A stretch of DNA of 32,000 nucleotides from an uncultured bacterium (GCA_964565945.1 CAZMGY010000021.1:194054-226053), one strand, 5' to 3'; counted from the first letter of the stretch, positions 1,334 through 32,000 are shown. A program made the numbers and translations. The notes: generated by a model from the letters alone, not told the origin.

Positions 1334-2233
1334 ATGGAACCACTATGTTTTTCAAGAGATCATATCTCCAGTTTTGATGGCTTGATGACTGCTAATCAAA
1401 AAGTACTTCAAATTATCGATAAAGCTAAACAAGTAGCGGTATCAGATTTGCCAGTTCTGATAGTTGGAGAAAAAGGTACTGGTAAAATGAGTTTTGCTAC
1501 ATCCATCCATTCCCATAGCAGTTATAAGGAAGGTGCATTTCTTGTTCTGGAATCTAAAGATTTGGATGAAAACCTTTTGCAAGAGTCTATCAGTGATTGT
1601 GGTCAGGGTACTTGTGTGATTAAGGATGTTTCTTTGCTTAATTTGGCGAGTCAGAATGAATTGTTGATGTTATTATATCAGTCCATGCAAGACAGGGCGG
1701 TACGTTTTGTGGTTACCTCTGTGGTGCCCTTAGGTCACTTAGTCAAAACAGGACAATTTTTGAAAAATTTGTTTATTTTGCTTAGCCAAGTAACCTTGGA
1801 GTTGCCTTCTTTGCATAAACGTCGTGATGATATTGCGTTGTTGATTCAATATTTCATTGGTGAATACAACGCCGAATTCAATCGACAAGTTGAGTGTGTG
1901 TCTAATGTGGCGTTGAGTTATTTGATTGGGTATGCCTGGCCGGGAAATGTTGAAGAATTAAGGAGTGTTGTGAAAAAGGCGGTGGCTTTATCGGAACGGA
2001 ATATTTTATGGTTGGAAGATATTTCCTTAAAAATTACCTTAACCAACGAGGCCATGCTTAAAGGTGATGCGTCATCTCATTTGTCTCTTAAGTACCTGGA
2101 GAAAGAGCATATCGAAAAAGTATTACAAATTTTTCGTTGGAATAAATCCAAGGCAGCTAAGGCGCTTAAAATATCGAGACCACGTCTCGATCGTAAAATT
2201 CAAGAGTACCAGCTCAAAAAAGATTTGTCTTAA
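1334..2233 (+). CDS. Degenerate bacterial enhancer-binding-protein-like regulator: an NtrC-type AAA+ core plus a Fis-type HTH, with no sensor domain, no GAFTGA loop and no Walker B
   Basis: Walker A is VLIVGEKGTGK. bEBP signature blocks are present: LPSLHKRRDDIALLIQYF and YAWPGNVEELRSVV. The C-terminal HTH reads NKSKAAKALKISRPRLDRKIQEY. Where ESELFGHEKGAFTGA...GGTLFLDEI is expected, the protein has only LLQESISDCGQGTCVIKDV. Confidence 0.75.
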   Translation: MEPLCFSRDHISSFDGLMTANQKVLQIIDKAKQVAVSDLPVLIVGEKGTGKMSFATSIHSHSSYKEGAFLVLESKDLDENLLQESISDCGQGTCVIKDVSLLNLASQNELLMLLYQSMQDRAVRFVVTSVVPLGHLVKTGQFLKNLFILLSQVTLELPSLHKRRDDIALLIQYFIGEYNAEFNRQVECVSNVALSYLIGYAWPGNVEELRSVVKKAVALSERNILWLEDISLKITLTNEAMLKGDASSHLSLKYLEKEHIEKVLQIFRWNKSKAAKALKISRPRLDRKIQEYQLKKDLS

Positions 2234-3355
2234 ACCAAGGTGTGTTTGGTAAGAATCGTTTGATAGCAGTGTTCGGTTGCTAAAGCCTGTTTTCCTAAGT
2301 TAAAATGATTTTCTACAAGAGAGCGAGTTATGTATCCCATCGTCGCTCTTTGAGAAGGACTTGTGTTGACCATCTTATGTATGGCGCGCAATAAGGATTT
2401 GCTGTTCAAGTCAAAGGTAAAACCATTCGCTTGTTCGGGGACATACTCGGGCAAAATTCCTTGATTGGCAACCAAGAGAGGCTTGCCCAAGGACATGGCT
2501 TCGAGTACTGCTCGACAGGAGCCGTCGAAGCCATGAACAAGGAGCAGCTTGATGTCGATTAAATTCAAAACTTAGGTATAGTCTTTGTCTCGGTAACCTA
2601 CTAGGTGGACCTTGGAGGCTAAGCCTAAGGTGTCAATCCAGTGCAGGATTTCCTGACGATGACAACCTCCTCGTCCTATCAAGACCAGTTGGACATCTGG
2701 TATGGAATCACTCAGTTTCTTAAAAGCTTCGAAAAGAAGGAAAGACTCTCGAGGACGTTGGAATCGTGCCACAACCCCGAAGGTCAGGTATGAGGGATGA
2801 AGCTGGAGTTCTTCGCGTTTAGAGATTTGTTTAGGGTGAGGTTTTAGGCTGGAGGTATTAGGAAGTGCTTGGAGTTAGGGGTTTTGGGAGTTGTGGTCGA
2901 AAAGTGTTTGAGAGTTATCGATCTAGGCGGATAGTTTACGAATGGCCCAACGGTGAAACGCATGGTTGTGTAAACGGTGGCTAAGGTGGTTGCTATAGAC
3001 AAGTTTGTGGATGTGTTCTGAAGATCCAAGAGAAGTGTGCCTATCACAAAGTTGTGGGAAAGGTGCATATGAACAATATCAAAAGCATGGCGTTGAACAA
3101 AGTTGGCGAGATCTTGGATATCGTGCCATTGATCTTTTAGGTTGCGTATGGACCAATATTTATTGAGTTTAAGTTCCGATGAGACGGAGACTTGTATGCA
3201 GCTTTATGAATCAGGAGGGGCTTAGGGTGATTGTGTGGCCATCGACAAGCAAATATTGTTTGATGACCACGTAAATCCAGGTTTTGGCAAATTTGCAAGA
3301 CGGAGTCTGCGGGATCTGTCTATTTCCAATCGCTGTAAAGATGGAGGATCTTCAT
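2230..3355 (-). pseudogene. Family 4 (GT-B fold, GT1/GT4-type) glycosyltransferase pseudogene
   Basis: The minus strand from the ATG at 3355 reads MKILHLYSDWK then TAG (3320-3322), then TDPADSVLQICQNLDLRGHQTIFAC. Homology then jumps frame to LNKYWSIRNLKDQWHDIQDLANFVQRHAFDIVHMHLSHNFVIG. It jumps frame again near 2850-2880 to KREELQLHPSYLTFGVVARFQRPRESF...VQLVLIGRGG...VGYRDKDYT. An in-frame TAA follows (2572-2574), then ...DGSCRAVLEAMSLGKPLLVANQGILPEYV. The ORF-track pieces 2230-2568, 2572-2772 and 2844-3068 are fragments of this one gene. Confidence 0.8.
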
Positions 3356-9431: not shown

Positions 9432-9470
9432 TATTATCCAATAAGTATACTTTACAAAGCATAAAGTGTA
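9422..9470 (+). promoter_or_regulatory. Promoter-like element P1 with an overlapping inverted repeat (candidate operator)
   Basis: TTGCTT (9422-9427), an 18-nt spacer, then TATACT (9446-9451). The inverted repeat is TATACTTTAC-AAAGC-ATAAAGTGTA (9446-9470). Its core ACTTTA-N7-TAAAGT is perfect. Confidence 0.35.
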
Positions 9471-9522
9471 GATCTTATAGCAAACTATGGAATGTGTAGA
9501 ATAAAAACTATAGAGTGGAAGG

Positions 9523-9551
9523 TTTACAAAATAATATATACTTTATATAAT
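9523..9551 (+). promoter_or_regulatory. Near-consensus sigma70-type promoter P2 upstream of the MerR/secretin cluster
   Basis: TTTACA (9523-9528), a 17-nt spacer, then TATAAT (9546-9551). It lies 60 nt upstream of the MerR start. The spacer contains TATACTTTA (9537-9545), the same 9-mer as in the P1 palindrome. Confidence 0.45.
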
Positions 9552-9610: not shown

Positions 9611-9877
9611 TTGTTGGAAAAATTGTACCGTATTGGGGAAATTATGGAATACAGTGGTTTGTCTCGGCAAACTGTGCATTTATATACGCAGATGCGCCTG
9701 ATTCAAGAAAAGAAACGAACCCATTCTGGCTACCGGCTCTATGATGAATACGTCTTTAAACAAATAGAAATCATCAAAGCCTTACAGGCCTTAGGTTATA
9801 CCCTTTTAGAAATCAAAGATATCTGTGATCAGGGAAAAGTTAAGGAAGCATTCAAGAAACATGGGGTGAAGTTATGA
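9611..9877 (+). CDS. Small MerR-family HTH protein (88 aa) that lacks the long dimerisation helix and effector domain
   Basis: YRIGEIMEYSGLSRQTVHLYTQMRLIQEKKRTHSGYRLYDEYVFKQIEIIKALQALGYTLLEIKDI matches the MerR winged-HTH pattern. The RBS GAGGAG is at 9600-9605. The stop overlaps the next gene's start as ATGA (9874-9877). Confidence 0.8.
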   Translation: MLEKLYRIGEIMEYSGLSRQTVHLYTQMRLIQEKKRTHSGYRLYDEYVFKQIEIIKALQALGYTLLEIKDICDQGKVKEAFKKHGVKL

Positions 9878-11769
9878 GTAAACAAGATCTTCGTGGCCAA
9901 GTTTTGCTTAATGCAGGAGTGATCAATCAAGCGCAATTGGATAAAGCTCTAGAAATTCAAAAAGATAGTATGCAACGTATTGGGCATGTTTTGGTGGATG
10001 CTGGATTTATTTCGGAGGAGGAAATGTTATTGGCGATGGAGCGTCAGAGCGGCATCCCTTGGATCAAATTAAGACTATCGGATATTCAAGGCAGTGCCAT
10101 TGCTTTGATGTCTCAAGATATTGCTCAACGTTATGCGTGTTGTCCCGTTAAAGAAGAAGGAGAGATCTTGACGGTAGCTATTTCGGATCCTTTATCGTAC
10201 GAAGATATCGACGACATCCGCTTGGTTGTGAAAAAAGAGATCGAGCTTATTCTTGTTTCGGAGTCCAGTGTTTTAAGAGCGTTGAATCAATTTTACGAAA
10301 TTGATCCGAAAGAGGTTTTTGCGACGATGACGCCCAAACCTCATGAGAGTGAAATAGTTGAGGTCGAAGAGGTTCTTGAGGATGTATCGCGAGAAGATAA
10401 TATTGTACCAGTTGAGCTTGCGCCGTCTTCCGAAGTTGCTCCAGAGATATTTTCCGAAGAACCTGTGGAGGAAGAGATTTCCGAAGTGGTGGTTGAACCT
10501 GAGCTTGTGTCTATTCCCGAAAGTGAATCCGAAACGGATACGGCACAAAACCTAATAGACGAGAGTGAAGAACCTGTTGCCACTGTGCCCGAGGTTAAAG
10601 AAACGCTTGTCGAAGAGCCCCTTGTTTGGCTGGACAAAATGGAGGAGCAGGATTTTTGGGATCTTGTTCTTGATGAGGTTGATTTAGCGAGTGATATTTA
10701 TTTAGAAAATGACCCTGAAAATCTTAAAGTTCGCTATCGTGCGGATGGCGTGATTGTCAAAGAACAACTGATAAGCAAAAAGTCGCCCGTGTATCAAAAA
10801 TATTGGGAGGTTTTGTTGAAATGGAATGCTCAGTCGATGCAAGGGCCTATTCAGTCTTTGTTTGCCAATGTTGGTCGTTTGCAAAGGCGAGTCAAGTTGA
10901 CCTTTCTTTCGGATCGTTATGGACAGGATGTGCATTTGAAATGTTTATTTTACGAAGAACCTGTGACGAGTTTTGATCACTTGGGACTGAATGAGTTTTG
11001 CCATCAGCAATTGGAAGCATTCTTGATGCGAAAAAAAGGTGTTCTCCTTTTGTTGGGCGATGCCGATTCGGGTTTGAGTACGACGCTTAGGGTGTTGGGA
11101 CGATCTTTGTCGCAGCAAAAACGAAAGGTTCTTAGTTTTGAGCGTTTTATCGAATATGATGTTCCGGATATTTACCAATTTGAATCAGAGTCGTTTGAAC
11201 TAGGGTATATCTATCAAGACATGAGTAAAATTTTCGATATTAATCCCGATGTTTTTATCTTTGCTAATTTGCCTCAGCCAGCCTGGGCACATTTTTTGCT
11301 TGAGGCTTCTTTTTCTGGGAAATTAGTTGTTTTAGGAATGAATGCAAAAAACCTTAATAGTGTTTTTGTCAAAATTGAAGAATTAGGCGTGCACAAAAAC
11401 ATTTTTATTAACGAGATTGATTGCGTGCTTCGCCAAAGTTTATTTCGTCTTAATTGTCCTGGATGTGGGGATATTGATGAAAAATCTTCCGAGCATGATA
11501 TGAAGTATTTACTAGGGGAAGGTCTTTTCTATAAAGGGACTGGCTGTGAGTTATGTTATGCAACGGGTTATCAAGGGCGTCGAGCTATTTTTGATGTCTT
11601 GGAGGTTGATGAAGCTGTCAAAGAGTTGATGAAAAATGATATCACCGAAAAAGATATTAGTAAGATGCGTGCGGAGCAAGGTGGCGTTAGCTTGGCACAA
11701 GAGGCTGTCAGAATGATACAGGAACGGTACACGTCAATAGAGGAAGTTCAGAGAATTGGATTGGTTTAA
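9874..11769 (+). CDS. GspE/PilB/MshE-family protein with an MshEN-type N-domain, an acidic linker, and a catalytically degenerate ATPase core (pseudo-ATPase)
   Basis: The N-domain reads LRGQVLLNAGVINQAQLDKALEIQ-KDSMQ-RIGHVLVDAGFISEEEMLLAMERQ...ILTVAISDPL. The N2 region reads LASDIYLENDPENLKVRYRADGVIV. The P-loop position reads GDADSGLSTTL instead of GPTGSGKSTTL. The Asp box is SFERFIEY, the Walker B region is NPDVFIFANLPQ, and the His box is SGKLVVLGMNAK. The tetracysteine site is retained: CPGCG...GCELCYATGYQGRRAIFDVLEV. Confidence 0.85.
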   Translation: MSKQDLRGQVLLNAGVINQAQLDKALEIQKDSMQRIGHVLVDAGFISEEEMLLAMERQSGIPWIKLRLSDIQGSAIALMSQDIAQRYACCPVKEEGEILTVAISDPLSYEDIDDIRLVVKKEIELILVSESSVLRALNQFYEIDPKEVFATMTPKPHESEIVEVEEVLEDVSREDNIVPVELAPSSEVAPEIFSEEPVEEEISEVVVEPELVSIPESESETDTAQNLIDESEEPVATVPEVKETLVEEPLVWLDKMEEQDFWDLVLDEVDLASDIYLENDPENLKVRYRADGVIVKEQLISKKSPVYQKYWEVLLKWNAQSMQGPIQSLFANVGRLQRRVKLTFLSDRYGQDVHLKCLFYEEPVTSFDHLGLNEFCHQQLEAFLMRKKGVLLLLGDADSGLSTTLRVLGRSLSQQKRKVLSFERFIEYDVPDIYQFESESFELGYIYQDMSKIFDINPDVFIFANLPQPAWAHFLLEASFSGKLVVLGMNAKNLNSVFVKIEELGVHKNIFINEIDCVLRQSLFRLNCPGCGDIDEKSSEHDMKYLLGEGLFYKGTGCELCYATGYQGRRAIFDVLEVDEAVKELMKNDITEKDISKMRAEQGGVSLAQEAVRMIQERYTSIEEVQRIGLV

Positions 11770-13252
11770 AAAGCTAAAACAGAAGCTTAAGTCGTTTAAG
11801 AAGATAGGTGTTTTCACTTATGTGGGATTGGATGTTTTAGAAACATCGTTCCCTCAGTATGTGGTTCTTCATAAGACGAAGAAAACATTCTCTTTGTACG
11901 ATTGTGGGCGCATTTTTAATCGAGACGAAGTGTTGGGGAAGATTAAAGATCTTAATGTTAAAGTTGCTGTTTCAATCCCTCGAGATAAGGTGATTGTCCG
12001 TGTGATGGATATTTCTTATCAGGAATCGCAGAGTTTAGTTGAAGTGATTATGGAGCATGCTGAACAGGCGGTTCCCTTTGCTTTAGGGGAATTGTTCTGG
12101 AAATATTTTATTATTAAGAAATCCAAAAATAAAGCGGTTGTTATTTTTTGTGCAGTGACCAAAGAAAAATCGAATCAGTATGCCCAAGAGCTTAAAGGCA
12201 TGGGGCTTAAAAATGTAGTGATGACGGCATCCACCTTGTCTTATGTGAATACCTTCCTTTTTAATCATTGTGATGAGCTTTCGAACAAAAGTTACTTATT
12301 GGTTGATATTGGTATGCGGCAATTAGAGTTGTGCATTATCGAAGACGGTGTTCTTGTTTTGACGCGAAGCTTGAACCTCGGCATCGAATATATGTTGCGT
12401 ATGCTTATGGATAAGTTCGATATTGATTTTCCTACAGCTCAAAAAGTTGTGTTTGGAGCACCTAAAAACAAAGAAGAACCTGAGGAGGAAACGCTTTTGA
12501 ATGAAACGGTTGTACGTGAAGTTTTTCATGTTTGGACCGAGCGTGTCTTGCGCGAAATAGAGTTAGCGAAAAGGTTTTATGCTAGCAAATACGCCAAAAA
12601 AATCGACAGCTTAGTCATGAGCGGTTGCCCGATTCAATATGGTTACGATTTGGATTATATTGCGAATGTGATGAGCAAGCACTTTGACCTAGAAACGATG
12701 CTGTTAGACCCTCTGAAAAATGCTATTTTGGATCACCAATCCCTTGTGCATCAAGAGGATTTGCAACAGATCAATAGCTTGGCGATTCCTATGGGCTTGG
12801 CGCTTCAGTTGGTTAAGCAAGCTCCTCTGATGATCAATTTGAATGGGCAAGACAAAGATATTCGTGAAGAGAGTTCTTATTGGTCACATATGGCGGGACA
12901 AAAAAACAAAGTTTTGGCCATAGGTGTTGGCATTATTTTGTGTGTGTTGGCAGCCCAGAGTTATTTTATTAAAAAATCTCAGATCAAGAAAAATAAAGTT
13001 CTCAAATCGGAATATGTCTTGAGTCAAAAACAAGCAGTGACCTTTAAAAAGAAAATAAAAAAGCAAAAAGAAAAATTGGGACGTATTCATATTCCTCAAA
13101 GTCTTTTTTTAGATGTTCATACCTATTTTTCTCAAAAGAAGCAGGAGGAGTCCACACTAAGGTATGAGAAGTATTTGTTTCAATCTGGGAAGGGGATTGT
13201 TTATGCCAAGGATGCCGAGGGGCAAGAAGTGATTGAAGAGGTGACGTTATGA
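11756..13252 (+). CDS. GspL-like protein: a PilM-type actin-like cytoplasmic domain fused through one TM helix to a short PilN-like periplasmic coiled coil
   Basis: PilM-like blocks are FTYVGLDVLETS, KVAVSIPRDKVIVRVMDI and YLLVDIGMRQLELCIIEDGVLVLTRSLNLGIEYM. The TM helix is VLAIGVGIILCVLAAQSYFI. A Lys-rich coiled segment follows. The TTG start at 11756 overlaps the end of the upstream gene by 14 nt. Confidence 0.65.
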   Translation: MDWFKKLKQKLKSFKKIGVFTYVGLDVLETSFPQYVVLHKTKKTFSLYDCGRIFNRDEVLGKIKDLNVKVAVSIPRDKVIVRVMDISYQESQSLVEVIMEHAEQAVPFALGELFWKYFIIKKSKNKAVVIFCAVTKEKSNQYAQELKGMGLKNVVMTASTLSYVNTFLFNHCDELSNKSYLLVDIGMRQLELCIIEDGVLVLTRSLNLGIEYMLRMLMDKFDIDFPTAQKVVFGAPKNKEEPEEETLLNETVVREVFHVWTERVLREIELAKRFYASKYAKKIDSLVMSGCPIQYGYDLDYIANVMSKHFDLETMLLDPLKNAILDHQSLVHQEDLQQINSLAIPMGLALQLVKQAPLMINLNGQDKDIREESSYWSHMAGQKNKVLAIGVGIILCVLAAQSYFIKKSQIKKNKVLKSEYVLSQKQAVTFKKKIKKQKEKLGRIHIPQSLFLDVHTYFSQKKQEESTLRYEKYLFQSGKGIVYAKDAEGQEVIEEVTL

Positions 13253-13791
13253 AAAAGTTACAAGAACTTTGGCAACATTTCAACTTCTTTTCCTTCAATC
13301 ATCGAAGTGTCCTCATTGTGGGAGGGGGTTTTCTTATTTTGCTTATCGCTATTTTATGGATGAAAAGTCAAAGCCGAGCGTATTGCAATGAGAATGCCTT
13401 GTTAGAGCATCAAATTCATAAGTTTTGGGTCGAATATCAAAAGTTCCAGCAGAAAAATCACAAAGAGATAATGGCGATCAAAGAGATTGGCGTTCTCAAA
13501 AATGATAAGCAGATTGCCAAAGAGGGTAAGCGTCTTCGAGAAAAAATGATTAAAATAACTGAGCAAGCTATTTGGAGTGTGGATACTTTGCCTGCCAAAA
13601 AAGATAAGGGGATTATCAAACTAAGTTTTTTGCTCAAGTTTTCAAAGCCAACTTTGGCTAAAATTATGCAGGTGATTTATGTTTTAGAACAAGATGAAGA
13701 GTTGTTTTTTATTGACGAAATTGAGCTCACTAAGGGTGGAGCAGGTGTTAGTGCTAAACTCCTTTTAAAGAGGCTATACATTGCGAGGTAA
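13249..13791 (+). CDS. GspM/PilO-like bitopic inner-membrane assembly protein
   Basis: The architecture is a short cytoplasmic N-terminus, a TM helix (VLIVGGGFLILLIAILWM), a coiled coil, then a C-terminal alpha/beta unit (IIKLSFLLKFSKPTLAKIMQVIYVLEQDEELFFIDEIELTK). Its position is between the GspL-like and GspC/PilP-like genes. The ATGA overlaps the upstream stop. The call rests on architecture and context, not on strong motifs. Confidence 0.5.
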   Translation: MKKLQELWQHFNFFSFNHRSVLIVGGGFLILLIAILWMKSQSRAYCNENALLEHQIHKFWVEYQKFQQKNHKEIMAIKEIGVLKNDKQIAKEGKRLREKMIKITEQAIWSVDTLPAKKDKGIIKLSFLLKFSKPTLAKIMQVIYVLEQDEELFFIDEIELTKGGAGVSAKLLLKRLYIAR

Positions 13792-13794
13792 ATT

Positions 13795-14295
13795 GTGAAA
13801 TTTGTTGCTTTGAGAATGATTTTTGTTTTATTGGGACTTTTGGTGACAGGTCAACTCTATGCCGAGGCCAAAGCTTTTCAAAAAACGCCTTTGGACGAGT
13901 GGGATGTGTACAGGGGGGCGTTTCAGCTAGATATTTTTAGAGAGCCACGTATCGAGACCCAGTCTGTGAATAAGGGAGGAGAGATAGTGGTTTCGTTGGA
14001 TCAAAATCTTGGAATAGAGGCTGATGAGATGATGCAATCTCTTCAAGATATGGTGAGTTTGCCCCCCCCCGAAGAATGTATTGATATCGATTGGGCTTTG
14101 TACGATATCACAATCACGGGTGTCGGGTTTGTGAGTGGTCGTCCTAAAATCTTTTTTGAAAACAGGGCGACGGGAAAAAGTTATTATCTTGCCCAAGGGC
14201 AAGAAGAAGATGGAATTCGTGTTGAACAAATCAGGCGATTGGCTATTATTTTTAGAATTCAAGGGCAAAAGCTTAAGATTGATCGCCAATTTTAG
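13795..14295 (+). CDS. GspC/PilP-like periplasmic protein (signal peptide plus a small beta domain)
   Basis: The GTG start follows GAGG. The signal peptide is MKFVALRMIFVLLGLLVTGQLYA|EA. The C-terminal segment ITGVGFVSGRPKIFFENRATGKSYYLAQGQEEDGIRVEQIRRLAIIFRIQGQKLKI resembles the PilP / GspC-HR pattern. The gene lies immediately upstream of the secretin. Confidence 0.5.
   Translation: MKFVALRMIFVLLGLLVTGQLYAEAKAFQKTPLDEWDVYRGAFQLDIFREPRIETQSVNKGGEIVVSLDQNLGIEADEMMQSLQDMVSLPPPEECIDIDWALYDITITGVGFVSGRPKIFFENRATGKSYYLAQGQEEDGIRVEQIRRLAIIFRIQGQKLKIDRQF
14062..14070 (+). repeat. Homopolymer C9 inside the GspC/PilP-like gene
   Basis: Read directly: agttt g ccccccccc gaag. It encodes LPPPEE. Confidence 0.9.
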
Positions 14296-14327
14296 TATAA
14301 TAGTTTCGTGATGGAGGAAGTGTGTGC

Positions 14328-16814
14328 ATGAAATTAGTAATTCAGTTTTTTTTAATGACTTTGTTGGCTATAGGGCTGCAGGTTGATCTTGGGGCTCAGG
14401 AAATGGCACAAGGCCCGATGGTGTCTATGGATTTTCATGAAGTTGACGTGGATAGTGTTCTTCATTTTTTGGGAGAGGCTTCGGGTTTAACAATTGTTAA
14501 AGACCCTACATTAACGGGGACGATAAGTATTACCACTTTTGGGAAGACGTCGGTGGGACAAGCAATTAACATTTTGAATAGTGCTTTGAGTGTCAAAGGT
14601 TTTACGTTGGTCAAAACAGGGGAGGTTCTTAAAATAGTTCCCCTAGAAGGCGTTTCTAAAACCAATGTGAACGTATTTAAAGATTATAAGATGCCTGCGA
14701 ATGAACCTAAAGATGACACCGTTGTGACCAAAATGATTTCTTTGCAATATGCCAAAGCTAAAGATGTTGTTACGGCTTTGCAGCCGTTGGTGGGGCGATT
14801 TGGCTCGGCGATTGCTTACGAAAGAACAAATACGGTTATTATTACCGACGCTTCGGCCAATATTGCACGCTTAACCGACTTGCTTGAAGATTTGGATCGT
14901 CAAGTGACCTCTTTGGTGACACGTTCTTACAAGGTTCAGCATGCTGGGCTAAACAAGCTGAAGGACTTACTTAAACAAATTACTGAGCAGTATGAACACG
15001 AATTGGGGCACTTTGCAATCAATTCGGATGAAAGAACGCGAACCCTATTTGTGACCACCCTTCTGGATAATTTTGACATGGTTGAAAAGCTGATTTATCA
15101 GCTTGATCAAGGAATACCTCAGGTGCTTATCGAAATGGAAGTAGTTAGAATTCCTTACCGCAACATTGATGTTGATATACGACACCGTCTTTTTGAGTCA
15201 TCAAAATATGCACATGATAAAAAGGTGATGAACGAGGGTGATCAAATTTTTAATTGGAGATACAGTATTGATGCCGATGCCGATAAAATGTTTTCTTGGT
15301 ATGGGCTATCTGAAGATAAGGGTAAAGAAGAATTTACCTACAAGTTGAATGTGTTGTATGGACCCGAATATTTTGATGTGTATGCCTTACCGATGGTGAC
15401 TGTGGCTGAAGGGAGCCAAACCGAGGTATCTATAGGGCACGAAAATTATTTTTACCGCTTGGCTCCAATGACGCTCGACTTTAAAATTATTCCTCATTTG
15501 AATGAAGATGAAACAGTTACTTTAGAAATGTTCCAACATGTTCGAGGAGATTGGCTCAAAACGCAAGATGCCTATGCACGTTTGGTGGTTGCCAAGGATC
15601 AAACTGTTGTTTTAGGGGGGCTTAATGAGCTGCGTTTACCTCAAGACCGTCAGGTGGCCTCGGCGTATCGCGAAGATACCCACTATGTAAGCAATGAATT
15701 TTTGATTTTTTTAACTCCGCATATCATTTGGGATCCAGCTACGTTTAAAAAGAAAATTGAGAAACAGGCCAAGGAAGCGGCCCTTAAAGCCGAAAAACCC
15801 GATTTAAATCTTTTGTTTCCTGGTGGTTTTATGGAATTTGATTTGCCCAAAGTGTCTGCGATGACCAAACAGAAACATCCTACTCAAGATGATTTTGTAA
15901 GCCCAAATCCTGGGGTGGAGTTAAAGGTTGATGAGGGCTCACATGGGCCACCAACCCAAAGCAAATCCTATAAAATTTGGTGGAAGATGCAAGATTTTGT
16001 ACAATTGCCCGAGGAGCTTGTTGACATTAAAGAGGCAATGTCGGATCGCAACTTTGTTGACAGTGAGGTGAGAAGCCGTTTGCGCAAGGATGTTGTTCAG
16101 TTTATGGAGAATGTTCGTGCCGAAGAAACCTTGGGCATGGAGCCCGATGTGAGCTTGAAAACCAAAGTGACACCTGTTCCCGAAAAAGAGAATTATGTTC
16201 TTAAAGAAACACTCTATCGTCGAGGTATTTCTTTTTACAAAAAACAACAGTATAAAGGGGCGATTCGTGAATTTGCTCCGATTATGAGTATCGATCCAAA
16301 CTATAAGAATGTGCAAAGATATATGCAGTTATCACAACAGCGTTACAAAGAACAGTTATCGGATTTGGGAGAGCGCAATAATATCGAAAAGGCCATTAAA
16401 GACAAGGCCTTGAAAGAATTGACCCAAACATACACGACGATGGATCAAAAAATCAAACAGGTGTCTCAGGCAGAGTCGATGGGAGCTTACACCAAGAGTG
16501 ACAAGTTGTTTAATTATATTGGAGAGCCTAAGGATATTCCTTCCGATCGCATTGAAAAGTCATTGACCGATCACTTAGCGGGAGAAATCTTGGAAGTTAG
16601 TGCTGCTCAACCCCTTGTGGTGATTAATCTTGGTTCGATTCAGAATGTTCATCCAGGGATGGCTTTCAAAGTGTATCGGGATCAGGAGTTTATCGGTAAA
16701 GTTCGTGTGTCCGATGTTGGAGAGCATGTTTCTGGAGCCGAGGTGGTTTCGACCAAAACTCCGAAAACAACTTTTCGTTTTGGAGATAAGGTGGTACAGG
16801 CCCTTGTAGCATAG
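14328..16814 (+). CDS. Secretin (GspD/PilQ family) with N0/N1/N-type domains, a short divergent secretin domain and a C-terminal extension of about 360 aa
   Basis: The ATG at 14328 lies 10 nt after GGAGG. The signal peptide is MKLVIQFFLMTLLAIGLQVDLGAQE. N0 reads VSMDFHEVDVDSVLHFLGEASGLTIVKDPTLTGTISI...KGFTLVKTGEVLKIVP. N1 reads TKMISLQYAKAKDVVTALQPL...ERTNTVIITDASANIARLTDLLEDLD. The secretin core reads PQVLIEMEVVRI...LDFKIIPHLNEDETVTLEM...QTVVLGGL...EFLIFLTPHII. After about 15735 comes a non-secretin tail with a TPR-like unit (YRRGISFYKKQQYKGAIREFAPIMSIDPNY) and a terminal beta-barrel-like unit. Confidence 0.85.
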   Translation: MKLVIQFFLMTLLAIGLQVDLGAQEMAQGPMVSMDFHEVDVDSVLHFLGEASGLTIVKDPTLTGTISITTFGKTSVGQAINILNSALSVKGFTLVKTGEVLKIVPLEGVSKTNVNVFKDYKMPANEPKDDTVVTKMISLQYAKAKDVVTALQPLVGRFGSAIAYERTNTVIITDASANIARLTDLLEDLDRQVTSLVTRSYKVQHAGLNKLKDLLKQITEQYEHELGHFAINSDERTRTLFVTTLLDNFDMVEKLIYQLDQGIPQVLIEMEVVRIPYRNIDVDIRHRLFESSKYAHDKKVMNEGDQIFNWRYSIDADADKMFSWYGLSEDKGKEEFTYKLNVLYGPEYFDVYALPMVTVAEGSQTEVSIGHENYFYRLAPMTLDFKIIPHLNEDETVTLEMFQHVRGDWLKTQDAYARLVVAKDQTVVLGGLNELRLPQDRQVASAYREDTHYVSNEFLIFLTPHIIWDPATFKKKIEKQAKEAALKAEKPDLNLLFPGGFMEFDLPKVSAMTKQKHPTQDDFVSPNPGVELKVDEGSHGPPTQSKSYKIWWKMQDFVQLPEELVDIKEAMSDRNFVDSEVRSRLRKDVVQFMENVRAEETLGMEPDVSLKTKVTPVPEKENYVLKETLYRRGISFYKKQQYKGAIREFAPIMSIDPNYKNVQRYMQLSQQRYKEQLSDLGERNNIEKAIKDKALKELTQTYTTMDQKIKQVSQAESMGAYTKSDKLFNYIGEPKDIPSDRIEKSLTDHLAGEILEVSAAQPLVVINLGSIQNVHPGMAFKVYRDQEFIGKVRVSDVGEHVSGAEVVSTKTPKTTFRFGDKVVQALVA

Positions 16815-19603: not shown

Positions 19604-20398
19604 ATGGAATTATTGGCCGCCATGTTTCAGAAAGAAAATTTTATTTGGTTTTTTCTGTATGCTTGGCGTCCTTTTGTCGAGATTTTTATCATTGCGATGG
19701 CCATTTATAGTATCACCACGTTTATTCGAGGAACGCGCACGGAACAATTGCTCAAAGGCTTAGGGCTCATTTTTGTGATTTTTGTGATTTCGCAAAAATT
19801 AGAGTTTCTCACGATCAGTTGGTTGCTCACCAAAGTGTTTGCGATATCCGTGATAGCATTTTTGATTTTGTTTCAGCCCGAACTGCGGCGGGCTTTGGCT
19901 AAAATTGGGCAAAACCGTATCTTTGGTAACTTTTTAAGAGAGAAAGGTTTTATTTACGAAATTGTCAAAGCTTCCTTGTTTTTGTCGAAAAAACGGATTG
20001 GTGCCTTGATTGTGGTGGAGCGCAATACGGGACTGGGAAGCTATATTGAAAGTGGTATTTTTTTAGATGCGCGCTTGAGCAGTGAGTTGATCACGAGTTT
20101 ATTTATGCCAACAACGCCTTTGCATGATGGTGCTGTGATTGTGCAAGGGGAACGTATTGCGGCGGTCGGATGTTTGTTGCCGCTCACAGAAAATCCTGTT
20201 CAACAACGTTTAGGAACGCGCCACCGGTCTGCGATTGGTTTGACCGAAGAAACCGATGCGGTTGTGGTTGTGGTTTCTGAAGAGACTGGTATTATTTCGG
20301 TGGTGAGTGAAGGTCATATCACCCGGGACTTAGGCGAAAAACGCTTGTCGGATGTGTTAGAACGATTGATTCTATCAGATGAAGGGTTAGAGGTATGA
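19604..20398 (+). CDS. cdaA: Membrane-anchored diadenylate cyclase (c-di-AMP synthase, DisA_N/DAC domain)
   Basis: Three N-terminal TM helices are followed by a DAC domain with the DGA motif (PLHDGAVIV) and the RHR motif (GTRHRSAIGLTEETDAVVVVVSEETG). Confidence 0.9.
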   Translation: MELLAAMFQKENFIWFFLYAWRPFVEIFIIAMAIYSITTFIRGTRTEQLLKGLGLIFVIFVISQKLEFLTISWLLTKVFAISVIAFLILFQPELRRALAKIGQNRIFGNFLREKGFIYEIVKASLFLSKKRIGALIVVERNTGLGSYIESGIFLDARLSSELITSLFMPTTPLHDGAVIVQGERIAAVGCLLPLTENPVQQRLGTRHRSAIGLTEETDAVVVVVSEETGIISVVSEGHITRDLGEKRLSDVLERLILSDEGLEV

Positions 20399-29797: not shown

Positions 29798-32000
29798 ATG
29801 AAATTATTCATGAAAACGCCAATGGCTGTGGCGACATTGGTACTTTTTCTATCGTCTGGTCCGTTGTTGGGGCAAGGGATTCAAATTGATACTACTAATC
29901 AAGGAAGCATCGACTATATCAACGGTGAGTATATTGTCGATGGGGATACGGCTGTTACTGGGGAATTTGATATTGATCAAGATATAGTTATCCGTGGTAT
30001 TAACAATGCCCAGCTTCTCTTTCAAGATATTTCTGGCACAGTTTCGAACATTAATGCTCAGTTAAGCTTGTACGATTTGGTTTTTGCACTGATCAATCAA
30101 GCGGGTATTAACATCGGAGTTGCTGGAGCAATTGCCGCTCACGACGCTGCAGCTATTCTTAGCACGCTTAATATCAATCCCGTAGATTTTTTTACACAGA
30201 ACTATACCTTCTCTAATGATGATAATGCGGTGGGAGCAGTTATTAATAATGGACAAGTTGAGGTTGATCAATTTGTCGCCTTCATTGGTGAAACCATTCA
30301 AAATGATGGTGCTGTGATTGCACGTCTTGGTCAAGTGGCTTTTGCTGCTGGTAACAAGGTGACTTTAAGCATTGATGGTGAAAATTTGGTTAACGTTATT
30401 GTGGATGAAGAACTGGCTGCCGATTTGGCTGATCAAATTGATGTTCAAAATCAAATTCTAAACACGGGGTCTGTAATAGCCGATGGTGGTCGTGTTTTGA
30501 TTAGTTCAGGAGCGGCGAAAGACCTGTTTGCCTCAGCGGTGAATAACACTGGCTTAATTCAAGCAAAATCTCTTGTAAACGAAGGTGGTCGGATTATTCT
30601 TAAATCTAATCAGGCCGTTAATATTGGGGGCAATGGAGTGATTGATGCGTCGGCAGATGCGTCTGGAGCTGAGTTGGGACGCATTACCATTGATAGCGAT
30701 GATGCGGTTTTTATTGGTGACAGTGCTGTCATTAAAACAAATGCTGTCGAGGGTGCCGATGCTGGATATATTGATATTCATGGTCACGGGCGCGGATCTT
30801 TGATTAGTGGCAATGCCCGTCTGGAGGCGCGTGGGGCAACGACAGATTCGGCTGCTGGACGAATTTTCTTGAACTCTTTTCATGATATTGAAAGCCCTTC
30901 TGTGCAAGATCGTGAAAATTATCAACAAGGGAATACAGGGTGGATTGAAAATAATGCCAAGATTATTGTGGATGGTGGCGACGAAGAGGGTTCTGGCTGG
31001 ATTGACTTTTCAGGTAAGAGTGTCGATTGGTATTCGGGCAAGGCTTTTCAGTTGAGAAAAGGTGGGATGTTTACTCTGGATCCGGCAGGGATTAGCTTTG
31101 TGGATAATAGTACTGGCAATGGAGATTCTGGTATTGTAAGCGGGATTGGTAGTAACCAAGAATACGCTTTTGGTGAAGATTCTACAGTTAACCTAATATT
31201 GGATGTGAATCCGAATAATGGAGGAGAATTGTTAGCTGGGATTAATGGAGGCACTCTGATTCTGGAGGCTTCGACTGTTAATGTCAATGTTGACTGGGAT
31301 ACAGATGAATCCAATGGAAGTAGTAATGAAGGCTATCATTTGACCATTAATGTCGATGGAATAGATAAGTCTTTTACTATTGCTAGTGGAGTCACTCTAA
31401 CAATGGCTGCAGATCGAAACTTTACAGTAAATTCTGAAGCAAACATTGAAATTGCAGGTAAGGTGATTGCGAGTGGTGCTGGAAACATTGCGTTGCATGC
31501 GGGTATGTCTACAGCTACTTTGGGAGGCGATGGTGTGAGTATTGATGCGACTCCTGTAATTGGCTTGGGGAAAGAGTCGATTGAGTTGGGAGCAGGTGCG
31601 TTGACGATTGATGCAGCTGGTGACGGCACAGAGGGTGTGATTAAGGTTTTGCTTAATGGGACGACAATTACAACGGATGGTGACGTAACCATTACTTCAC
31701 AGGATGTAGAGACACATCCTTTGGTTATTAATAGAAGGGTAGCTCAAGGAGATACTTTAACCGTGAACTTGACCGCTGACCCAGCAGGGGGTGCGGGTTT
31801 ACTAGATATCGATGTGACGGGTAATGGATTTAACGATTATGCCGTAGACGTAGATGACGCGGAGAATGATTTACATATTGATGTCGTAGGTGGAGATTTG
31901 ATTTCAACCTCAGGTGTAACAAATGGAACTGTTCACACGATTGACGAAGTTGTGTTGGTCAATACAGATGCCACTTTGAGTTACAATTTGTCCGAAATAG
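29798..32000 (+). CDS. Large filamentous-haemagglutinin-like beta-helical exoprotein (TpsA-like). Partial: it continues beyond the window end.
   Basis: Hand translation from the ATG at 29798 (RBS AAGAGGG) gives the signal peptide MKLFMKTPMAVATLVLFLSSGPLLGQG. It then gives LVFALINQAGINIGVAGAI...AVINNGQVEV...IQNDGAVIARLGQVAFAAGNKVTLSIDGENLVNVIVD...ILNTGSVIADGGRVLISS...VNNTGLIQAKSLVNEGGRIILKS...VIDASADASGAELGRITIDS. This is typical of haemagglutination-activity/TPS domains. Gly/Asp/Asn/Thr-rich beta-helix-like sequence follows. The frame is open for 734 codons to base 32000, which is why it is absent from the complete-ORF track. Confidence 0.75.
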   Translation, partial: MKLFMKTPMAVATLVLFLSSGPLLGQGIQIDTTNQGSIDYINGEYIVDGDTAVTGEFDIDQDIVIRGINNAQLLFQDISGTVSNINAQLSLYDLVFALINQAGINIGVAGAIAAHDAAAILSTLNINPVDFFTQNYTFSNDDNAVGAVINNGQVEVDQFVAFIGETIQNDGAVIARLGQVAFAAGNKVTLSIDGENLVNVIVDEELAADLADQIDVQNQILNTGSVIADGGRVLISSGAAKDLFASAVNNTGLIQAKSLVNEGGRIILKSNQAVNIGGNGVIDASADASGAELGRITIDSDDAVFIGDSAVIKTNAVEGADAGYIDIHGHGRGSLISGNARLEARGATTDSAAGRIFLNSFHDIESPSVQDRENYQQGNTGWIENNAKIIVDGGDEEGSGWIDFSGKSVDWYSGKAFQLRKGGMFTLDPAGISFVDNSTGNGDSGIVSGIGSNQEYAFGEDSTVNLILDVNPNNGGELLAGINGGTLILEASTVNVNVDWDTDESNGSSNEGYHLTINVDGIDKSFTIASGVTLTMAADRNFTVNSEANIEIAGKVIASGAGNIALHAGMSTATLGGDGVSIDATPVIGLGKESIELGAGALTIDAAGDGTEGVIKVLLNGTTITTDGDVTITSQDVETHPLVINRRVAQGDTLTVNLTADPAGGAGLLDIDVTGNGFNDYAVDVDDAENDLHIDVVGGDLISTSGVTNGTVHTIDEVVLVNTDATLSYNLSEI

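What the first reader, a model, noticed from the sequence alone, without database searches (positions are those of the whole stretch)
10660..11769. Every catalytic motif of the secretion ATPase fold is ablated while the zinc site and fold markers persist
The motif changes are:
- The P-loop (11056-11082) encodes GDADSGLST instead of GPTGSGKST. That is four substitutions, including the invariant Lys changed to Leu.
- The Asp box TIEDPVE reads SFERFIE.
- Walker B DPDvImvGEiRD reads NPDVFIFANLPQ, with no catalytic Glu.
- The His box TGHLVLSTLHTN reads SGKLVVLGMNAK.
- The PQDGR arginine-finger region reads IQSLF.
Fold landmarks remain: ASDIY-LE, VRYRADGV and the CxxC...CxxC tetracysteine cluster. 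The ORF is long and uninterrupted, with coupled translation on both sides. This pattern indicates a conserved pseudo-enzyme rather than a decaying gene.
Basis: partly seen in the sequence, partly recalled or inferred. Interest (0 to 1): 0.7.

Follow-up and report, generated by a model that had tools for sequence, protein, structure and literature searches.

The report
Conserved dead PilB-type pilus ATPase
This gene encodes a pilus/secretion motor ATPase that has lost every catalytic residue. It is nonetheless kept under strong selection, together with a cyclic-di-GMP sensor domain and a zinc site, in a small operon with an outer-membrane secretin, so it most likely acts as a signal-receiving scaffold rather than a motor.

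Summary
ORF 9874-11769 (631 aa) has the PilB/GspE fold (Pfam T2SSE 119 bits; AF2 model matches PilB/PilF/GspE at TM 0.75-0.81). Its Walker A, Asp box, Walker B, His box and arginine-finger region are all replaced. The CxxC...CxxC zinc site is intact.

It is not a decaying gene:
- Orthologues at 36-68% identity in four other metagenomic lineages carry the same replaced motifs, intact frames and the same gene order.
- Against the 68% orthologue, synonymous sites are saturated (pS 0.75) while pN is 0.21, and 0.13 in the ex-catalytic core. That is as constrained as the secretin.
- The ex-catalytic motif positions are more conserved than the rest of the core (0.56 vs 0.35, p≈0.0003).

This is an MshEN cyclic-di-GMP receptor domain and the best conserved part of the protein.

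The gene is translationally coupled inside an operon: MerR, dead ATPase, PilM-PilN fusion, PilO-position protein, PilP-position protein, secretin. No platform protein or pilin was found nearby.

Best reading: a c-di-GMP-responsive, non-catalytic cytoplasmic scaffold or regulator of a PilMNOPQ-like envelope complex. This function is inferred, not shown. It is a new variant of a known kind, from a rare uncultured lineage.

The parts
9446..9481 (+). Candidate MerR-type operator/promoter: inverted repeat TATACTTTA-N7-TAAAGTGTA overlapping TTTACA, a 19-nt spacer, then TATAGC. Weak evidence.
   Evidence: The inverted repeat was found. The block AAGTATACTTTACAAAG..TAAAGTG is conserved with the region upstream of the MerR gene in orthologous locus L008. 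The 19-nt spacing was read from the sequence. No functional test was done.
9611..9877 (+). Short MerR-family regulator (87-88 aa). Its stop overlaps the start of the pseudo-ATPase gene (ATGA).
   Evidence: Pfam MerR_1 E=4.9e-12. It is 76% identical to the MerR gene that precedes the orthologue in L008. A MerR gene also precedes the sister protein P0071.
9874..11769 (+). Whole pseudo-ATPase ORF, 631 aa: MshEN domain, acidic linker, then PilB/GspE-fold N2D and CTD with dead catalytic motifs.
9874..10302 (+). MshEN (GSPII/T2SSE_N) domain, aa 1-143. The two 24-residue c-di-GMP motifs lie at aa 6-29 (nt 9889-9960) and aa 35-58 (nt 9976-10047), with a 5-residue spacer.
   Evidence: NCBIfam c-di-GMP_motif NF053729 scores 55.3 bits against a cutoff of 38. 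Pfam MshEN scores 61 bits. Motif 2 fits the published relaxed pattern, while motif 1 has LRG in place of RLG (pattern from PMC5013675). AF2 pLDDT is about 90. This is the best conserved segment among orthologues, at 58-68%.
10306..10659 (+). Acidic, disordered linker, aa 145-262 (37 D/E, 5 K/R, 12 P).
   Evidence: Composition. pLDDT is below 50 over aa 145-257. Sequence conservation is low (18-31%) and length varies between orthologues.
10660..11028 (+). N2D-equivalent domain, aa 263-385. It holds ASDIYLE (10687-10707), VRYRADGV (10729-10752) and the ex-arginine-finger region GPIQSLF (10843-10863).
11056..11082 (+). Ex-Walker A: GDADSGLST. The family consensus is G-D-x-x-[SA]-G-[LIV]-S-T, with no Lys.
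11134..11154 (+). Ex-Asp box: SFERFIE, in place of T-x-E-D-P-V-E.
11242..11277 (+). Ex-Walker B: NPDVFIFANLPQ, in place of DPDVIMVGEIRD. There is no catalytic Glu.
11314..11349 (+). Ex-His box: SGKLVVLGMNAK, in place of TGHLVLSTLHTN. The family consensus is [GD]-[KC]-L-[VI]-[VL]-[LVI]-G-[ML]-N-x-K.
11455..11556 (+). Tetracysteine zinc site: CPGC (11455-11466) and CELC (11545-11556).
   Evidence: The four Cys are invariant in all family members and in active homologues. The role of the zinc site in EpsE is described in PMC5061722 (listed).
11756..13252 (+). PilM-like actin-fold protein fused to a transmembrane segment and a short periplasmic tail (PilM-PilN or GspL-like). It has a TTG start 14 nt inside the end of the pseudo-ATPase gene.
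   Evidence: Pfam PilM_2 E=3.8e-20. NCBIfam pilM 82 bits. PDB PilM 3jc8. The overlap TTGGAyTGGyTTAA is conserved in the window, L007, L008 and L010.
13249..13791 (+). 180-aa bitopic membrane protein at the PilO/GspM position.
   Evidence: Assigned by position and N-terminal hydrophobic segment only. No family hit passes threshold. Orthologues are present in L007, L010 and L011.
13795..14295 (+). 166-aa exported protein at the PilP/GspC position, with a conserved C-terminal beta-rich domain.
   Evidence: Signal-peptide-like N-terminus. The conserved C-terminal ~65 aa are seen. The only family hit is a sub-threshold one to T2SSB.
14322..16814 (+). Divergent secretin: N0, N1 domains, a short secretin core, and a long C-terminal extension (TPR plus a conserved beta domain).
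   Evidence: Pfam type_II_gspD_N0 and Secretin_N pass threshold; the Secretin domain reaches only 16 bits. NCBIfam GspD N-terminal part scores 148 bits. PDB matches cover N0/N1 only. Only five family members exist in the 5.8-billion-protein collection.

Best explanation
ORF 9874-11769 encodes a catalytically dead paralogue of the PilB/MshE type of type IV pilus assembly ATPase. It is kept by selection as a non-enzymatic subunit of a small envelope-spanning module.

Shown:
- It has the PilB fold and the zinc site.
- It lacks the Walker A Lys, the Asp-box acids, the Walker B Glu, both His-box histidines and the PQDGR arginine.
- These losses are shared by orthologues down to 36% identity.
- The gene is under strong purifying selection.
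- It is translationally coupled into a conserved operon: MerR, dead ATPase, PilM-PilN fusion, PilO-position protein, PilP-position protein, secretin.
- Its N-terminal MshEN domain is the best conserved part and passes the curated c-di-GMP-motif model.

Inferred:
- The protein cannot hydrolyse ATP. It probably cannot bind it either, because two Asp and a hydrophobic residue now sit in the P-loop.
- It docks on the cytoplasmic actin-like domain of the co-translated PilM-PilN protein, as PilB does on PilM and GspE does on GspL. It probably does so as a ring held together by the retained N2D/CTD fold and zinc domain.
- It binds c-di-GMP through MshEN. It passes that signal through the PilMN/O/P-like proteins to the secretin, or uses it to control assembly or occupancy of the complex.

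No platform protein or pilin was found near it. The module is therefore either a motor-less, signal-gated secretin complex, or it borrows an active ATPase, platform and pilins encoded elsewhere.
For: Fold and homology:
- Pfam T2SSE scores 119 bits and MshEN 61 bits.
- PDB PilF, PilB and GspE match at E=3e-54 to 1e-29.
- The AF2 model has pLDDT above 90 in the CTD. Foldseek gives TM 0.75-0.81 to 5oiu, 5tsh and 5it5.

Motif loss:
- Shown: - All five key positions are lost only in this family among 149 representative hits.

Conservation:
- Orthologues P0053 (36%), P0054 (39%), the P0093 fragment and L010 (68%) carry the same replaced motifs.
- Window against L010: pS 0.754 (saturated), pN 0.210 overall and 0.131 in the CTD core.
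- For comparison, pN is 0.201 in the secretin, 0.404 in PilMN, 0.505 in p180 and 0.444 in p166.
- Ex-motif positions show 0.558 mean pairwise identity against 0.350 for the rest of the core, permutation p≈0.0003.

Operon:
- Gene order and the 14-nt overlap are the same in L007, L008 and L010.
- The module secretin is followed by FtsH in four lineages.

MshEN:
- NF053729 scores 55.3 bits against a cutoff of 38.
- Motif 2 is canonical and the spacer is 5 residues.
- The region aa 1-60 is 58-68% identical among orthologues, the highest of any segment.
- The unusual DLRGQ start of motif 1 is also kept in the more distant sister protein P0071.

No pilin or platform:
- There are no Pfam hits of that kind in the window.
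- There is no prepilin motif in six-frame translations of the window or of L007-L011.

Precedent for signalling roles of PilB independent of its motor function: PMC5544727 and PMC11656802.
Against: - No biochemical data exist. Loss of ATP binding or hydrolysis and c-di-GMP binding are both inferred from sequence.
- MshEN motif 1 deviates from the consensus at its first two positions (LRG instead of RLG) and fails the published relaxed pattern. Affinity could therefore be reduced or lost.
- Only 32 kb of the genome, plus short orthologous contigs, could be inspected. An active ATPase, platform protein and pilins may exist elsewhere.
- The interaction with the PilM-like protein rests on analogy and gene coupling, not on a test.
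- The family is known from only five metagenomic lineages, of which two give partial sequences.
Confidence: 0.6

Rival explanations
1. Brake or competitor. The dead ATPase occupies the PilM/platform docking site of a complete type IV pilus or type II secretion machine whose active ATPase, platform protein and pilins are encoded elsewhere. It blocks or times that machine's activity, possibly in response to c-di-GMP, or it forms mixed rings with the active ATPase.
For: - The fold, zinc domain and N-terminal docking domain are retained.
- No platform protein or pilin lies in the operon, so the module looks incomplete on its own.
- The sister operon with P0071 does carry a T2SSG-type pseudopilin gene.
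- ATPases of this superfamily are known to cooperate. For example, Walker-box mutants of V. cholerae PilT still support retraction together with PilU (PMC11656802).
Against: - The protein is co-translated with its own PilM-like partner and always travels with its own PilMNOPQ-like set. That fits a dedicated subunit better than a regulator of another machine.
- No second machine could be seen in the sequence available.
Confidence: 0.2
2. Purely structural assembly factor. The ring-forming fold is kept only to nucleate or stabilise the PilMN/O/P-secretin complex. The MshEN domain serves as a protein-docking domain, like N1E of GspE, with no nucleotide second-messenger input.
For: - Degenerate MshEN domains that do not bind c-di-GMP exist, for example XpsE (PMC12943098 figure legend).
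- Motif 1 here is non-canonical.
- The best Foldseek hit is the GspE-GspL complex 4pht.
Against: - The exact c-di-GMP motif region (aa 1-60) is the most conserved stretch of the protein. It is more conserved than the rest of the MshEN domain.
- It passes the curated motif model.
- All hydrophobic and Gly/Gln motif positions are kept in both repeats.
Confidence: 0.13
3. The protein is still an enzyme. It binds and hydrolyses a nucleotide, or binds another ligand, using non-canonical residues in the remodelled pocket.
For: - The ex-catalytic positions are conserved in their new form (GDxxSG[LIV]ST, GMNxK). The pocket is therefore under constraint and could bind something.
- The sister protein P0071 keeps an intact P-loop, GPVCSGKTT.
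Against: - The Walker A Lys, Walker B Glu, Asp-box acids, both His-box histidines and the PQDGR arginine are all gone.
- The P-loop carries two acidic residues that should repel phosphate.
- No member of the superfamily is known to work without these residues (established knowledge of the PilT/VirB11-like ATPases).
Confidence: 0.05
4. The ORF is a decaying pseudogene that happens to remain open.
For: All catalytic motifs are lost.
Against: - A 1.9-kb frame is intact in five lineages.
- pN is 0.21 against saturated pS.
- Constraint equals that on the secretin.
- Translational coupling is conserved.
- A real pseudogene in the same window is visibly broken by stops.
Confidence: 0.02

Closest known systems
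Type IVa pilus assembly ATPase PilB (Geobacter metallireducens 5tsg/5tsh, Myxococcus xanthus 3jc8)
   Same: - Same overall architecture: MshEN-type N-terminal domain, linker, N2D, and a CTD with a tetracysteine zinc site.
- Best NCBIfam match is PilB, 176.7 bits.
- Best N-terminal-domain match is Geobacter PilB, 79.5 bits.
- Structural match at TM about 0.75-0.79.
- The genomic partner is PilM-type.
   Different: - All catalytic motifs are replaced.
- The score is far below the equivalog cutoff of 675.
- The acidic linker is long (118 aa).
- No pilC, pilT or pilin genes lie nearby.
MshE of Vibrio cholerae and PA14_29490: c-di-GMP-binding MshEN ATPases
   Same: - N-terminal 53-residue tandem motif with a 5-residue spacer.
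- The curated motif model is passed.
- Homology to 5htl at E=4e-14.
   Different: - In those proteins c-di-GMP regulates an active ATPase. Here the output domain is dead.
- Motif 1 begins LRG rather than RLG.
[quoted passage not shown]
   Same: - Top Foldseek hit.
- An ATPase-fold protein is encoded next to, and presumably docked on, a bitopic protein with a cytoplasmic actin-like domain.
- The secretin N0/N1 domains are GspD-like.
   Different: - The partner matches PilM_2 rather than the GspL family.
- No GspF, pseudopilins or GspO lie nearby.
- The ATPase is dead.
Degenerate-enzyme c-di-GMP receptors such as FimX (inactive GGDEF/EAL), which regulates PilB
   Same: Same logic: an enzyme fold that has lost catalysis is kept as a signalling or scaffold part of a pilus-type machine (PMC11656802).
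   Different: - The fold is unrelated.
- In FimX the dead domain is itself the ligand sensor. Here the sensor (MshEN) is intact and the dead domain is the former output motor.
Sister protein P0071 and its operon (JGI metagenome 3300072015)
   Same: - The N-terminal domain is 42% identical and has the same DLRGQ variant.
- The operon is MerR, MshEN-T2SSE protein, PilM-like, then a secretin without a Pfam Secretin-domain hit.
- The Asp box, Walker B Glu and His box are already lost.
   Different: - It keeps an intact P-loop, GPVCSGKTT.
- Its operon includes a T2SSG-type pseudopilin gene and a weak PilZ protein.
- It looks like an intermediate stage of the same degeneration.

Membership tests
PilB/GspE assembly ATPases (Pfam T2SSE PF00437; NCBIfam TIGR02538 PilB, TIGR02533 GspE) | Sequence homology to the T2SSE domain above Pfam's gathering score | tested here: met
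   119.4 bits against a cutoff of 24.9, covering profile positions 23-370 of 370.
PilB/GspE assembly ATPases (Pfam T2SSE PF00437; NCBIfam TIGR02538 PilB, TIGR02533 GspE) | Reaches the curated equivalog score for PilB or GspE | tested here: not met
   176.7 against 675.65 for PilB, and 166.6 against 630.25 for GspE.
PilB/GspE assembly ATPases (Pfam T2SSE PF00437; NCBIfam TIGR02538 PilB, TIGR02533 GspE) | Walker A motif GxxGxGK[ST] with the invariant Lys | tested here: not met
   The motif reads GDADSGLST, with Leu at the Lys position. Orthologues have Ile or Val there.
PilB/GspE assembly ATPases (Pfam T2SSE PF00437; NCBIfam TIGR02538 PilB, TIGR02533 GspE) | Asp box (E-D-P-V-E), atypical Walker B with catalytic Glu (hhhhGE), and His box (two His) | tested here: not met
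   These read SFERFIE, NPDVFIFANLPQ and SGKLVVLGMNAK.
PilB/GspE assembly ATPases (Pfam T2SSE PF00437; NCBIfam TIGR02538 PilB, TIGR02533 GspE) | Arginine-finger region (R-L-P-Q-D-G-R and following Arg residues) | tested here: not met
   GPIQSLF aligns to LPQDGR. The two nearly invariant Arg positions, 341 and 356, are Lys here. The alignment in this segment is less certain than for the other motifs.
PilB/GspE assembly ATPases (Pfam T2SSE PF00437; NCBIfam TIGR02538 PilB, TIGR02533 GspE) | Tetracysteine zinc-binding subdomain | tested here: met
   C528, C531, C558 and C561 are invariant in the family and in active homologues.
PilB/GspE assembly ATPases (Pfam T2SSE PF00437; NCBIfam TIGR02538 PilB, TIGR02533 GspE) | Three-dimensional fold (N2D plus RecA-like CTD) | tested here: met
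   The AF2 model has pLDDT 74-96 over aa 260-631. Foldseek gives probability 1.0 and TM 0.75-0.81 to PilB, PilF and GspE.
PilB/GspE assembly ATPases (Pfam T2SSE PF00437; NCBIfam TIGR02538 PilB, TIGR02533 GspE) | ATP hydrolysis and hexamer formation | not testable with these tools
   Needs purified protein.
MshEN c-di-GMP receptor domain | Domain homology (PF05157) and the curated c-di-GMP motif model NF053729 | tested here: met
   PF05157 scores 61 bits against a cutoff of 23.1. NF053729 scores 55.3 bits against a cutoff of 38.
MshEN c-di-GMP receptor domain | Two 24-residue motifs [RKPN]hGxxhhxx[GAS]hhxxxxhxxxhxx[Q...] joined by a 5-residue spacer (PMC5013675) | tested here: inconclusive
   Motif 2 (aa 35-58) fits exactly and the spacer is 5 residues. 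Motif 1 (aa 6-29) fits at every position except the first two, reading LRG rather than RLG. This variant is conserved in all orthologues and in P0071.
MshEN c-di-GMP receptor domain | Measured c-di-GMP binding | not testable with these tools
   Needs ITC or DRaCALA on the purified N-terminal domain.
Type IV filament superfamily machine (T4aP / T2SS) | Cytoplasmic actin-like partner (PilM/GspL) and alignment proteins | tested here: met
   The PilM_2 hit (72.5 bits) is followed by a TM segment in the same protein. Two small bitopic or exported proteins follow in PilO/PilP order, assigned by position only.
Type IV filament superfamily machine (T4aP / T2SS) | Outer-membrane secretin | tested here: met
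   The N0 and Secretin_N domains are above threshold. The secretin core is recognisable only weakly, at 16 bits.
Type IV filament superfamily machine (T4aP / T2SS) | Inner-membrane platform protein (PilC/GspF), pilins with a class III signal peptide, and a prepilin peptidase | tested here: not met
   None are present in the 32-kb window or in orthologous loci L007-L011. The rest of the genome could not be inspected.
Amuc_1101-family PilM-like pilus complex (Akkermansia) | NCBIfam NF045709 equivalog score for the PilM-like protein | tested here: not met
   81.7 bits against a cutoff of 650. This is no better than the generic PilM score of 82.3 bits.

The most novel reading that the evidence does not exclude
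The module is a motor-less descendant of a type IV pilus or type II secretion machine. It would be a secretin conduit with its PilMNOP-like alignment complex, working without ATP, platform protein or pilus. The former motor would have been converted into a c-di-GMP-operated cytoplasmic switch that gates or assembles the channel, for example for export of a polymer or an adhesin. The P0071 operon (P-loop and pseudopilin retained) would be an evolutionary intermediate.
Probability: 0.2. Interest if true: 0.8.

Novelty: new variant of a known kind. Interest (0 to 1): 0.6.

Why it matters
Assembly ATPases of the PilB/GspE class are treated as the obligatory motors of type IV pili and type II secretion. 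The full-text searches run here found no report of a member that has lost every catalytic motif yet stays under strong selection.

This family would show that the ring-shaped ATPase has a function separable from ATP hydrolysis, such as scaffold, gatekeeper or signal receiver. It would offer a natural ATPase-null variant for dissecting that role.

It also pairs an apparently intact c-di-GMP sensor domain with a dead output domain. This points to second-messenger control exerted through protein contacts alone.

About one in eight of the closest representative homologues shows partial motif loss. Non-catalytic PilB paralogues may therefore be an overlooked class.

Tried and rejected
- **Close relatives in GTDB species genomes.** Two scans, one with the protein and one with a family alignment, found none.
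- **JGI metagenome contigs.** Two scans, with the ATPase and secretin alignments, found none.
- **Word-indexed homologue search.** It missed the family, partly because the 90% cluster holding the window protein is represented by a 47-aa fragment. The family was found only by the exhaustive HMMER search and through the secretin.
- **Taxonomic placement.** It failed. No source gives names for these proteins. The window has no rRNA, tRNA or Rfam hits. Sample accessions appear in no paper. The nearest ordinary GspD hits are named Planctomycetes or Omnitrophica, but at only 25-30% identity.
- **Population-level dN/dS.** It was impossible because six further contigs are 99.97-99.99% identical, with no differences in the gene. 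For the orthologue pairs, dS is saturated, so only pN and pS are reported.
- **Genome walking to look for an active ATPase, platform or pilins.** It stopped because the available contigs break in a large repeat-protein gene just downstream of the window.
- **Link to the Akkermansia Amuc_1098-1102 cluster.** Rejected, because the score is no better than for generic PilM.
- **The secretin slime-export paper (PMC12475490).** It says nothing about ATPases.
- **Context of other partly degenerate homologues.** P0115 and P0104 lie among housekeeping genes and gave no informative context.
Full report
**What is at the coordinates**

The finding's range (10660-11769) is the C-terminal two thirds of a longer ORF, 9874-11769 on the + strand, 631 aa. 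Pfam finds two domains above threshold: MshEN (aa 60-143, 61 bits) and T2SSE (aa 271-627, 119 bits, covering nearly the whole profile). NCBIfam ranks PilB (176.7 bits) and GspE (166.6 bits) first. Both scores are far below the equivalog cutoffs of 675 and 630. NCBIfam also reports a pass of the curated 'cyclic di-GMP-binding domain, MshE-related' model at aa 8-58 (55.3 bits, cutoff 38).

Alignments to solved PilF and PilB and to active metagenomic homologues place them opposite the canonical motifs:

| Peptide here | Canonical motif |
|---|---|
| GDADSGLST | GPTGSGKT (Walker A) |
| SFERFIE | TxEDPVE (Asp box) |
| NPDVFIFANLPQ | DPDxIxVGEIRD (Walker B) |
| SGKLVVLGMNAK | TGHLVxSTLHTN (His box) |
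| GPIQSLF | LPQDGR (arginine-finger region) |

The four cysteines (C528, C531, C558, C561) are invariant.

**Structure**

An AlphaFold2 model was built on a 43-sequence alignment:
- The MshEN domain is confident (pLDDT about 90).
- The acidic linker is disordered (aa 145-257, pLDDT below 50; 37 D/E against 5 K/R).
- The N2D is moderately confident.
- The CTD is very confident (pLDDT above 90).

Foldseek against the PDB returns the GspE-GspL complex, PilF and PilB with probability 1.0 and target-normalised TM 0.75-0.81. The fold is therefore intact.

**Pseudogene or conserved pseudoenzyme?**

An exhaustive HMMER search of 1.84 billion representatives gives three hits that stand apart from the rest:
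- P0053: 641 aa, 36% identity, full length.
- P0054: 581 aa, 39%.
- P0093: a 226-aa fragment, 38%.

All later hits are ordinary PilB-like ATPases at 28% identity or less. A motif table shows that these three, and only these, share the replaced motifs (GDxxSG[LIV]ST, SFExFIE, GMNxK). A fifth member came from a search through the secretin. Locus L010 encodes the C-terminal 350 aa, which is 68% identical to the window protein without a single gap and has the same motifs.

Evidence of selection:
- For the window-L010 pair, synonymous sites are saturated (pS 0.754), while pN is 0.210 overall and 0.131 in the core that carries the dead motifs.
- In the same pair, pN is 0.201 for the secretin, 0.404 for the PilM-like gene, 0.505 for the 180-aa gene and 0.444 for the 166-aa gene. 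The 'dead' domain is thus one of the two most constrained parts of the operon.
- Within the family, the 40 ex-catalytic motif positions are more conserved than the other 100 core positions (0.558 vs 0.350 mean pairwise identity; permutation p≈0.0003). The old active site has been remodelled into a new conserved surface. It has not been released from constraint.

The window also offers a contrast. A glycosyltransferase-1 gene at about 2230-3300 on the minus strand is broken by stops into fragments that match consecutive parts of the Pfam profile. That is what decay looks like in this genome. The pseudogene reading is rejected.

The N-terminal 143 aa are an MshEN domain. Its second 24-residue c-di-GMP motif (aa 35-58, RIGHVLVDAGFISEEEMLLAMERQ) fits the published pattern exactly. 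The spacer is the canonical five residues. The first motif (aa 6-29) fits at every position except that it begins LRG instead of RLG (pattern from PMC5013675).

This segment (aa 1-60) is the most conserved part of the protein among orthologues. It is 58-68% identical, against 17-29% for N2D and 26-40% for the CTD segments. The unusual DLRGQ start is kept even in a more distant sister protein, P0071. Its closest solved relatives are the N-terminal domains of Geobacter and Myxococcus PilB and of V. cholerae MshE. c-di-GMP sensing is therefore the most plausible conserved activity, although it has not been measured.

**Genomic context**

The gene sits in a tightly packed operon:
- A short MerR-family regulator (9611-9877), whose stop overlaps the ATG (ATGA).
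- The dead ATPase (9874-11769).
- A PilM-like actin-fold protein fused to a transmembrane segment and a periplasmic tail (11756-13252). Its TTG start lies 14 nt inside the ATPase gene.
- A 180-aa bitopic protein (13249-13791).
- A 166-aa exported protein with a conserved C-terminal beta domain (13795-14295).
- A divergent secretin (14322-16814) with GspD-like N0/N1 domains, a barely recognisable secretin core and a long TPR-containing C-terminal extension.

The order and the 14-nt overlap (TTGGAyTGGyTTAA) are the same in L007, L008 and L010. The MerR gene is present in L008 (76% identical) but not in L007. Flanking genes are housekeeping: MurJ and a C-N hydrolase upstream, and FtsH, FolP and CdaA downstream. 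FtsH follows the secretin in four lineages.

No PilC/GspF, pilin or prepilin peptidase is present in the window or in the orthologous loci. A six-frame scan for class III signal peptides found none. The rest of the genome could not be reached.

**A sister operon suggests how this state arose**

P0071 (546 aa) shares the N-terminal domain (42% identity, same DLRGQ variant). It lies in the operon MerR, MshEN-T2SSE protein, T2SSG pseudopilin, PilM-like, 280 aa, secretin without a Pfam Secretin hit, 160 aa, weak PilZ.

Its Asp box, Walker B Glu and His box are already lost, but its P-loop is intact (GPVCSGKTT). This suggests stepwise degeneration: hydrolysis residues went first, then nucleotide binding and the pilin gene.

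More broadly, 19 of the other 146 closest representatives show partial loss of key residues, and six of those lack the Walker A Lys. Non-catalytic PilB paralogues may be recurrent. Two such proteins that I looked up sit in uninformative contexts.

**Mechanism**

Shown:
- Intact fold and zinc site.
- Loss of all catalytic residues.
- Strong purifying selection.
- A conserved coupled operon.
- A conserved MshEN motif region.

Inferred:
- The protein cannot turn over ATP, and with two Asp and a Leu in the P-loop it probably does not bind it.
- It assembles on the cytoplasmic domain of the co-translated PilM-PilN protein, by analogy with PilB-PilM and GspE-GspL.
- It binds c-di-GMP and converts that signal, by protein contacts alone, into a change in the PilMN/O/P-secretin complex.

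I put about 0.9 on 'selected, catalytically inactive PilB paralogue' and about 0.5 on 'c-di-GMP-responsive scaffold or regulator of this module'. That gives about 0.6 for the combined statement.

The rivals are a brake on a complete machine encoded elsewhere (0.2), a purely structural factor with no second-messenger input (0.13), a cryptic enzyme or ligand binder (0.05), and a pseudogene (0.02).

**Comparison with what is known**

The protein works like the non-motor face of PilB. M. xanthus PilB acts as a signalling protein for exopolysaccharide production (PMC5544727). c-di-GMP binding to MshEN regulates MshE, PilB and PilF (PMC5013675, PMC11656802).

It is homologous to PilB/GspE, but it fails the defining catalytic features and the curated equivalog scores. 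It should therefore not be filed as a PilB or GspE ATPase.

The logic resembles that of degenerate-enzyme receptors such as FimX, in a different fold. Four full-text searches found no description of a fully dead PilB/GspE-class protein.

**Limits**

- The organism is an uncultured bacterium whose taxon I could not determine.
- The family is known from five lineages only, and two of those give partial sequences.
- All functional statements beyond sequence, structure prediction and selection are inference.

Noticed in passing
window 9442-9481: The block AAGTATACTTTACAAAG..TAAAGTG upstream of the MerR gene is conserved with the orthologous locus L008. It contains the inverted repeat TATACTTTA-N7-TAAAGTGTA and a TTTACA, 19 nt, TATAGC arrangement. 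The long spacer is typical of MerR-controlled promoters. A stronger sigma-70-like site (TTTACA, 17 nt, TATAAT) lies at 9523-9551.
   Followed up: partly
window 14322-16814 (secretin), especially 16200-16814: The secretin and its four relatives lack a Pfam Secretin-domain hit above threshold (16 bits here). They carry a long C-terminal extension with TPR-like repeats and a highly conserved terminal beta domain, which gives a weak FlgT_C hit (E=6e-4). Only five such secretins exist in the 5.8-billion-protein collection, and the next hits are ordinary GspD at 189 bits.
   Followed up: partly
window 2230-3300, minus strand: Remnant of a family-1 glycosyltransferase gene. Two ORF fragments (2572-2772 and 2230-2568) are separated by an in-frame stop and match consecutive parts of PF00534 (positions 22-83 and 103-167). 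The N-terminal part no longer forms an ORF. This is a genuine pseudogene next to the SOGP-type glucan phosphorylase gene.
   Followed up: yes
window 29798-32000 (+), running off the end: A large ORF (more than 734 aa) has a signal peptide and no Pfam domain. Public contigs of this organism break inside it, which suggests repeats.
   Followed up: partly
L007 3-6131: In the most divergent orthologous locus, a protein of at least 2042 aa with cadherin, Big_12 and RTX repeats lies immediately upstream of the dead-ATPase gene. It is a possible adhesin or substrate, or the position may be coincidental.
   Followed up: no
P0071 contig (JGI 3300072015, no DNA available): Sister operon: MerR, partly degenerate MshEN-T2SSE protein (P-loop intact), T2SSG pseudopilin, PilM-like, 280 aa, secretin, 160 aa, weak PilZ protein.
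   Followed up: partly
representative hits P0070-P0199: Nineteen other PilB-like representatives among the 149 best hits have lost one or more key catalytic residues. Six lack the Walker A lysine (P0085, P0104, P0115, P0149, P0152, P0180). P0115 and P0104 are encoded among housekeeping genes.
   Followed up: partly
window 9874-11769 (database note): The 90%-identity cluster that holds this exact protein is represented by a 47-aa fragment. The protein and its family are therefore invisible to the word-indexed homologue search.
   Followed up: yes
window 19604-20398: A CdaA-type c-di-AMP synthase gene lies three genes downstream of the secretin (order FtsH, FolP, CdaA). This order is conserved in L009. 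No link to the module is apparent.
   Followed up: no
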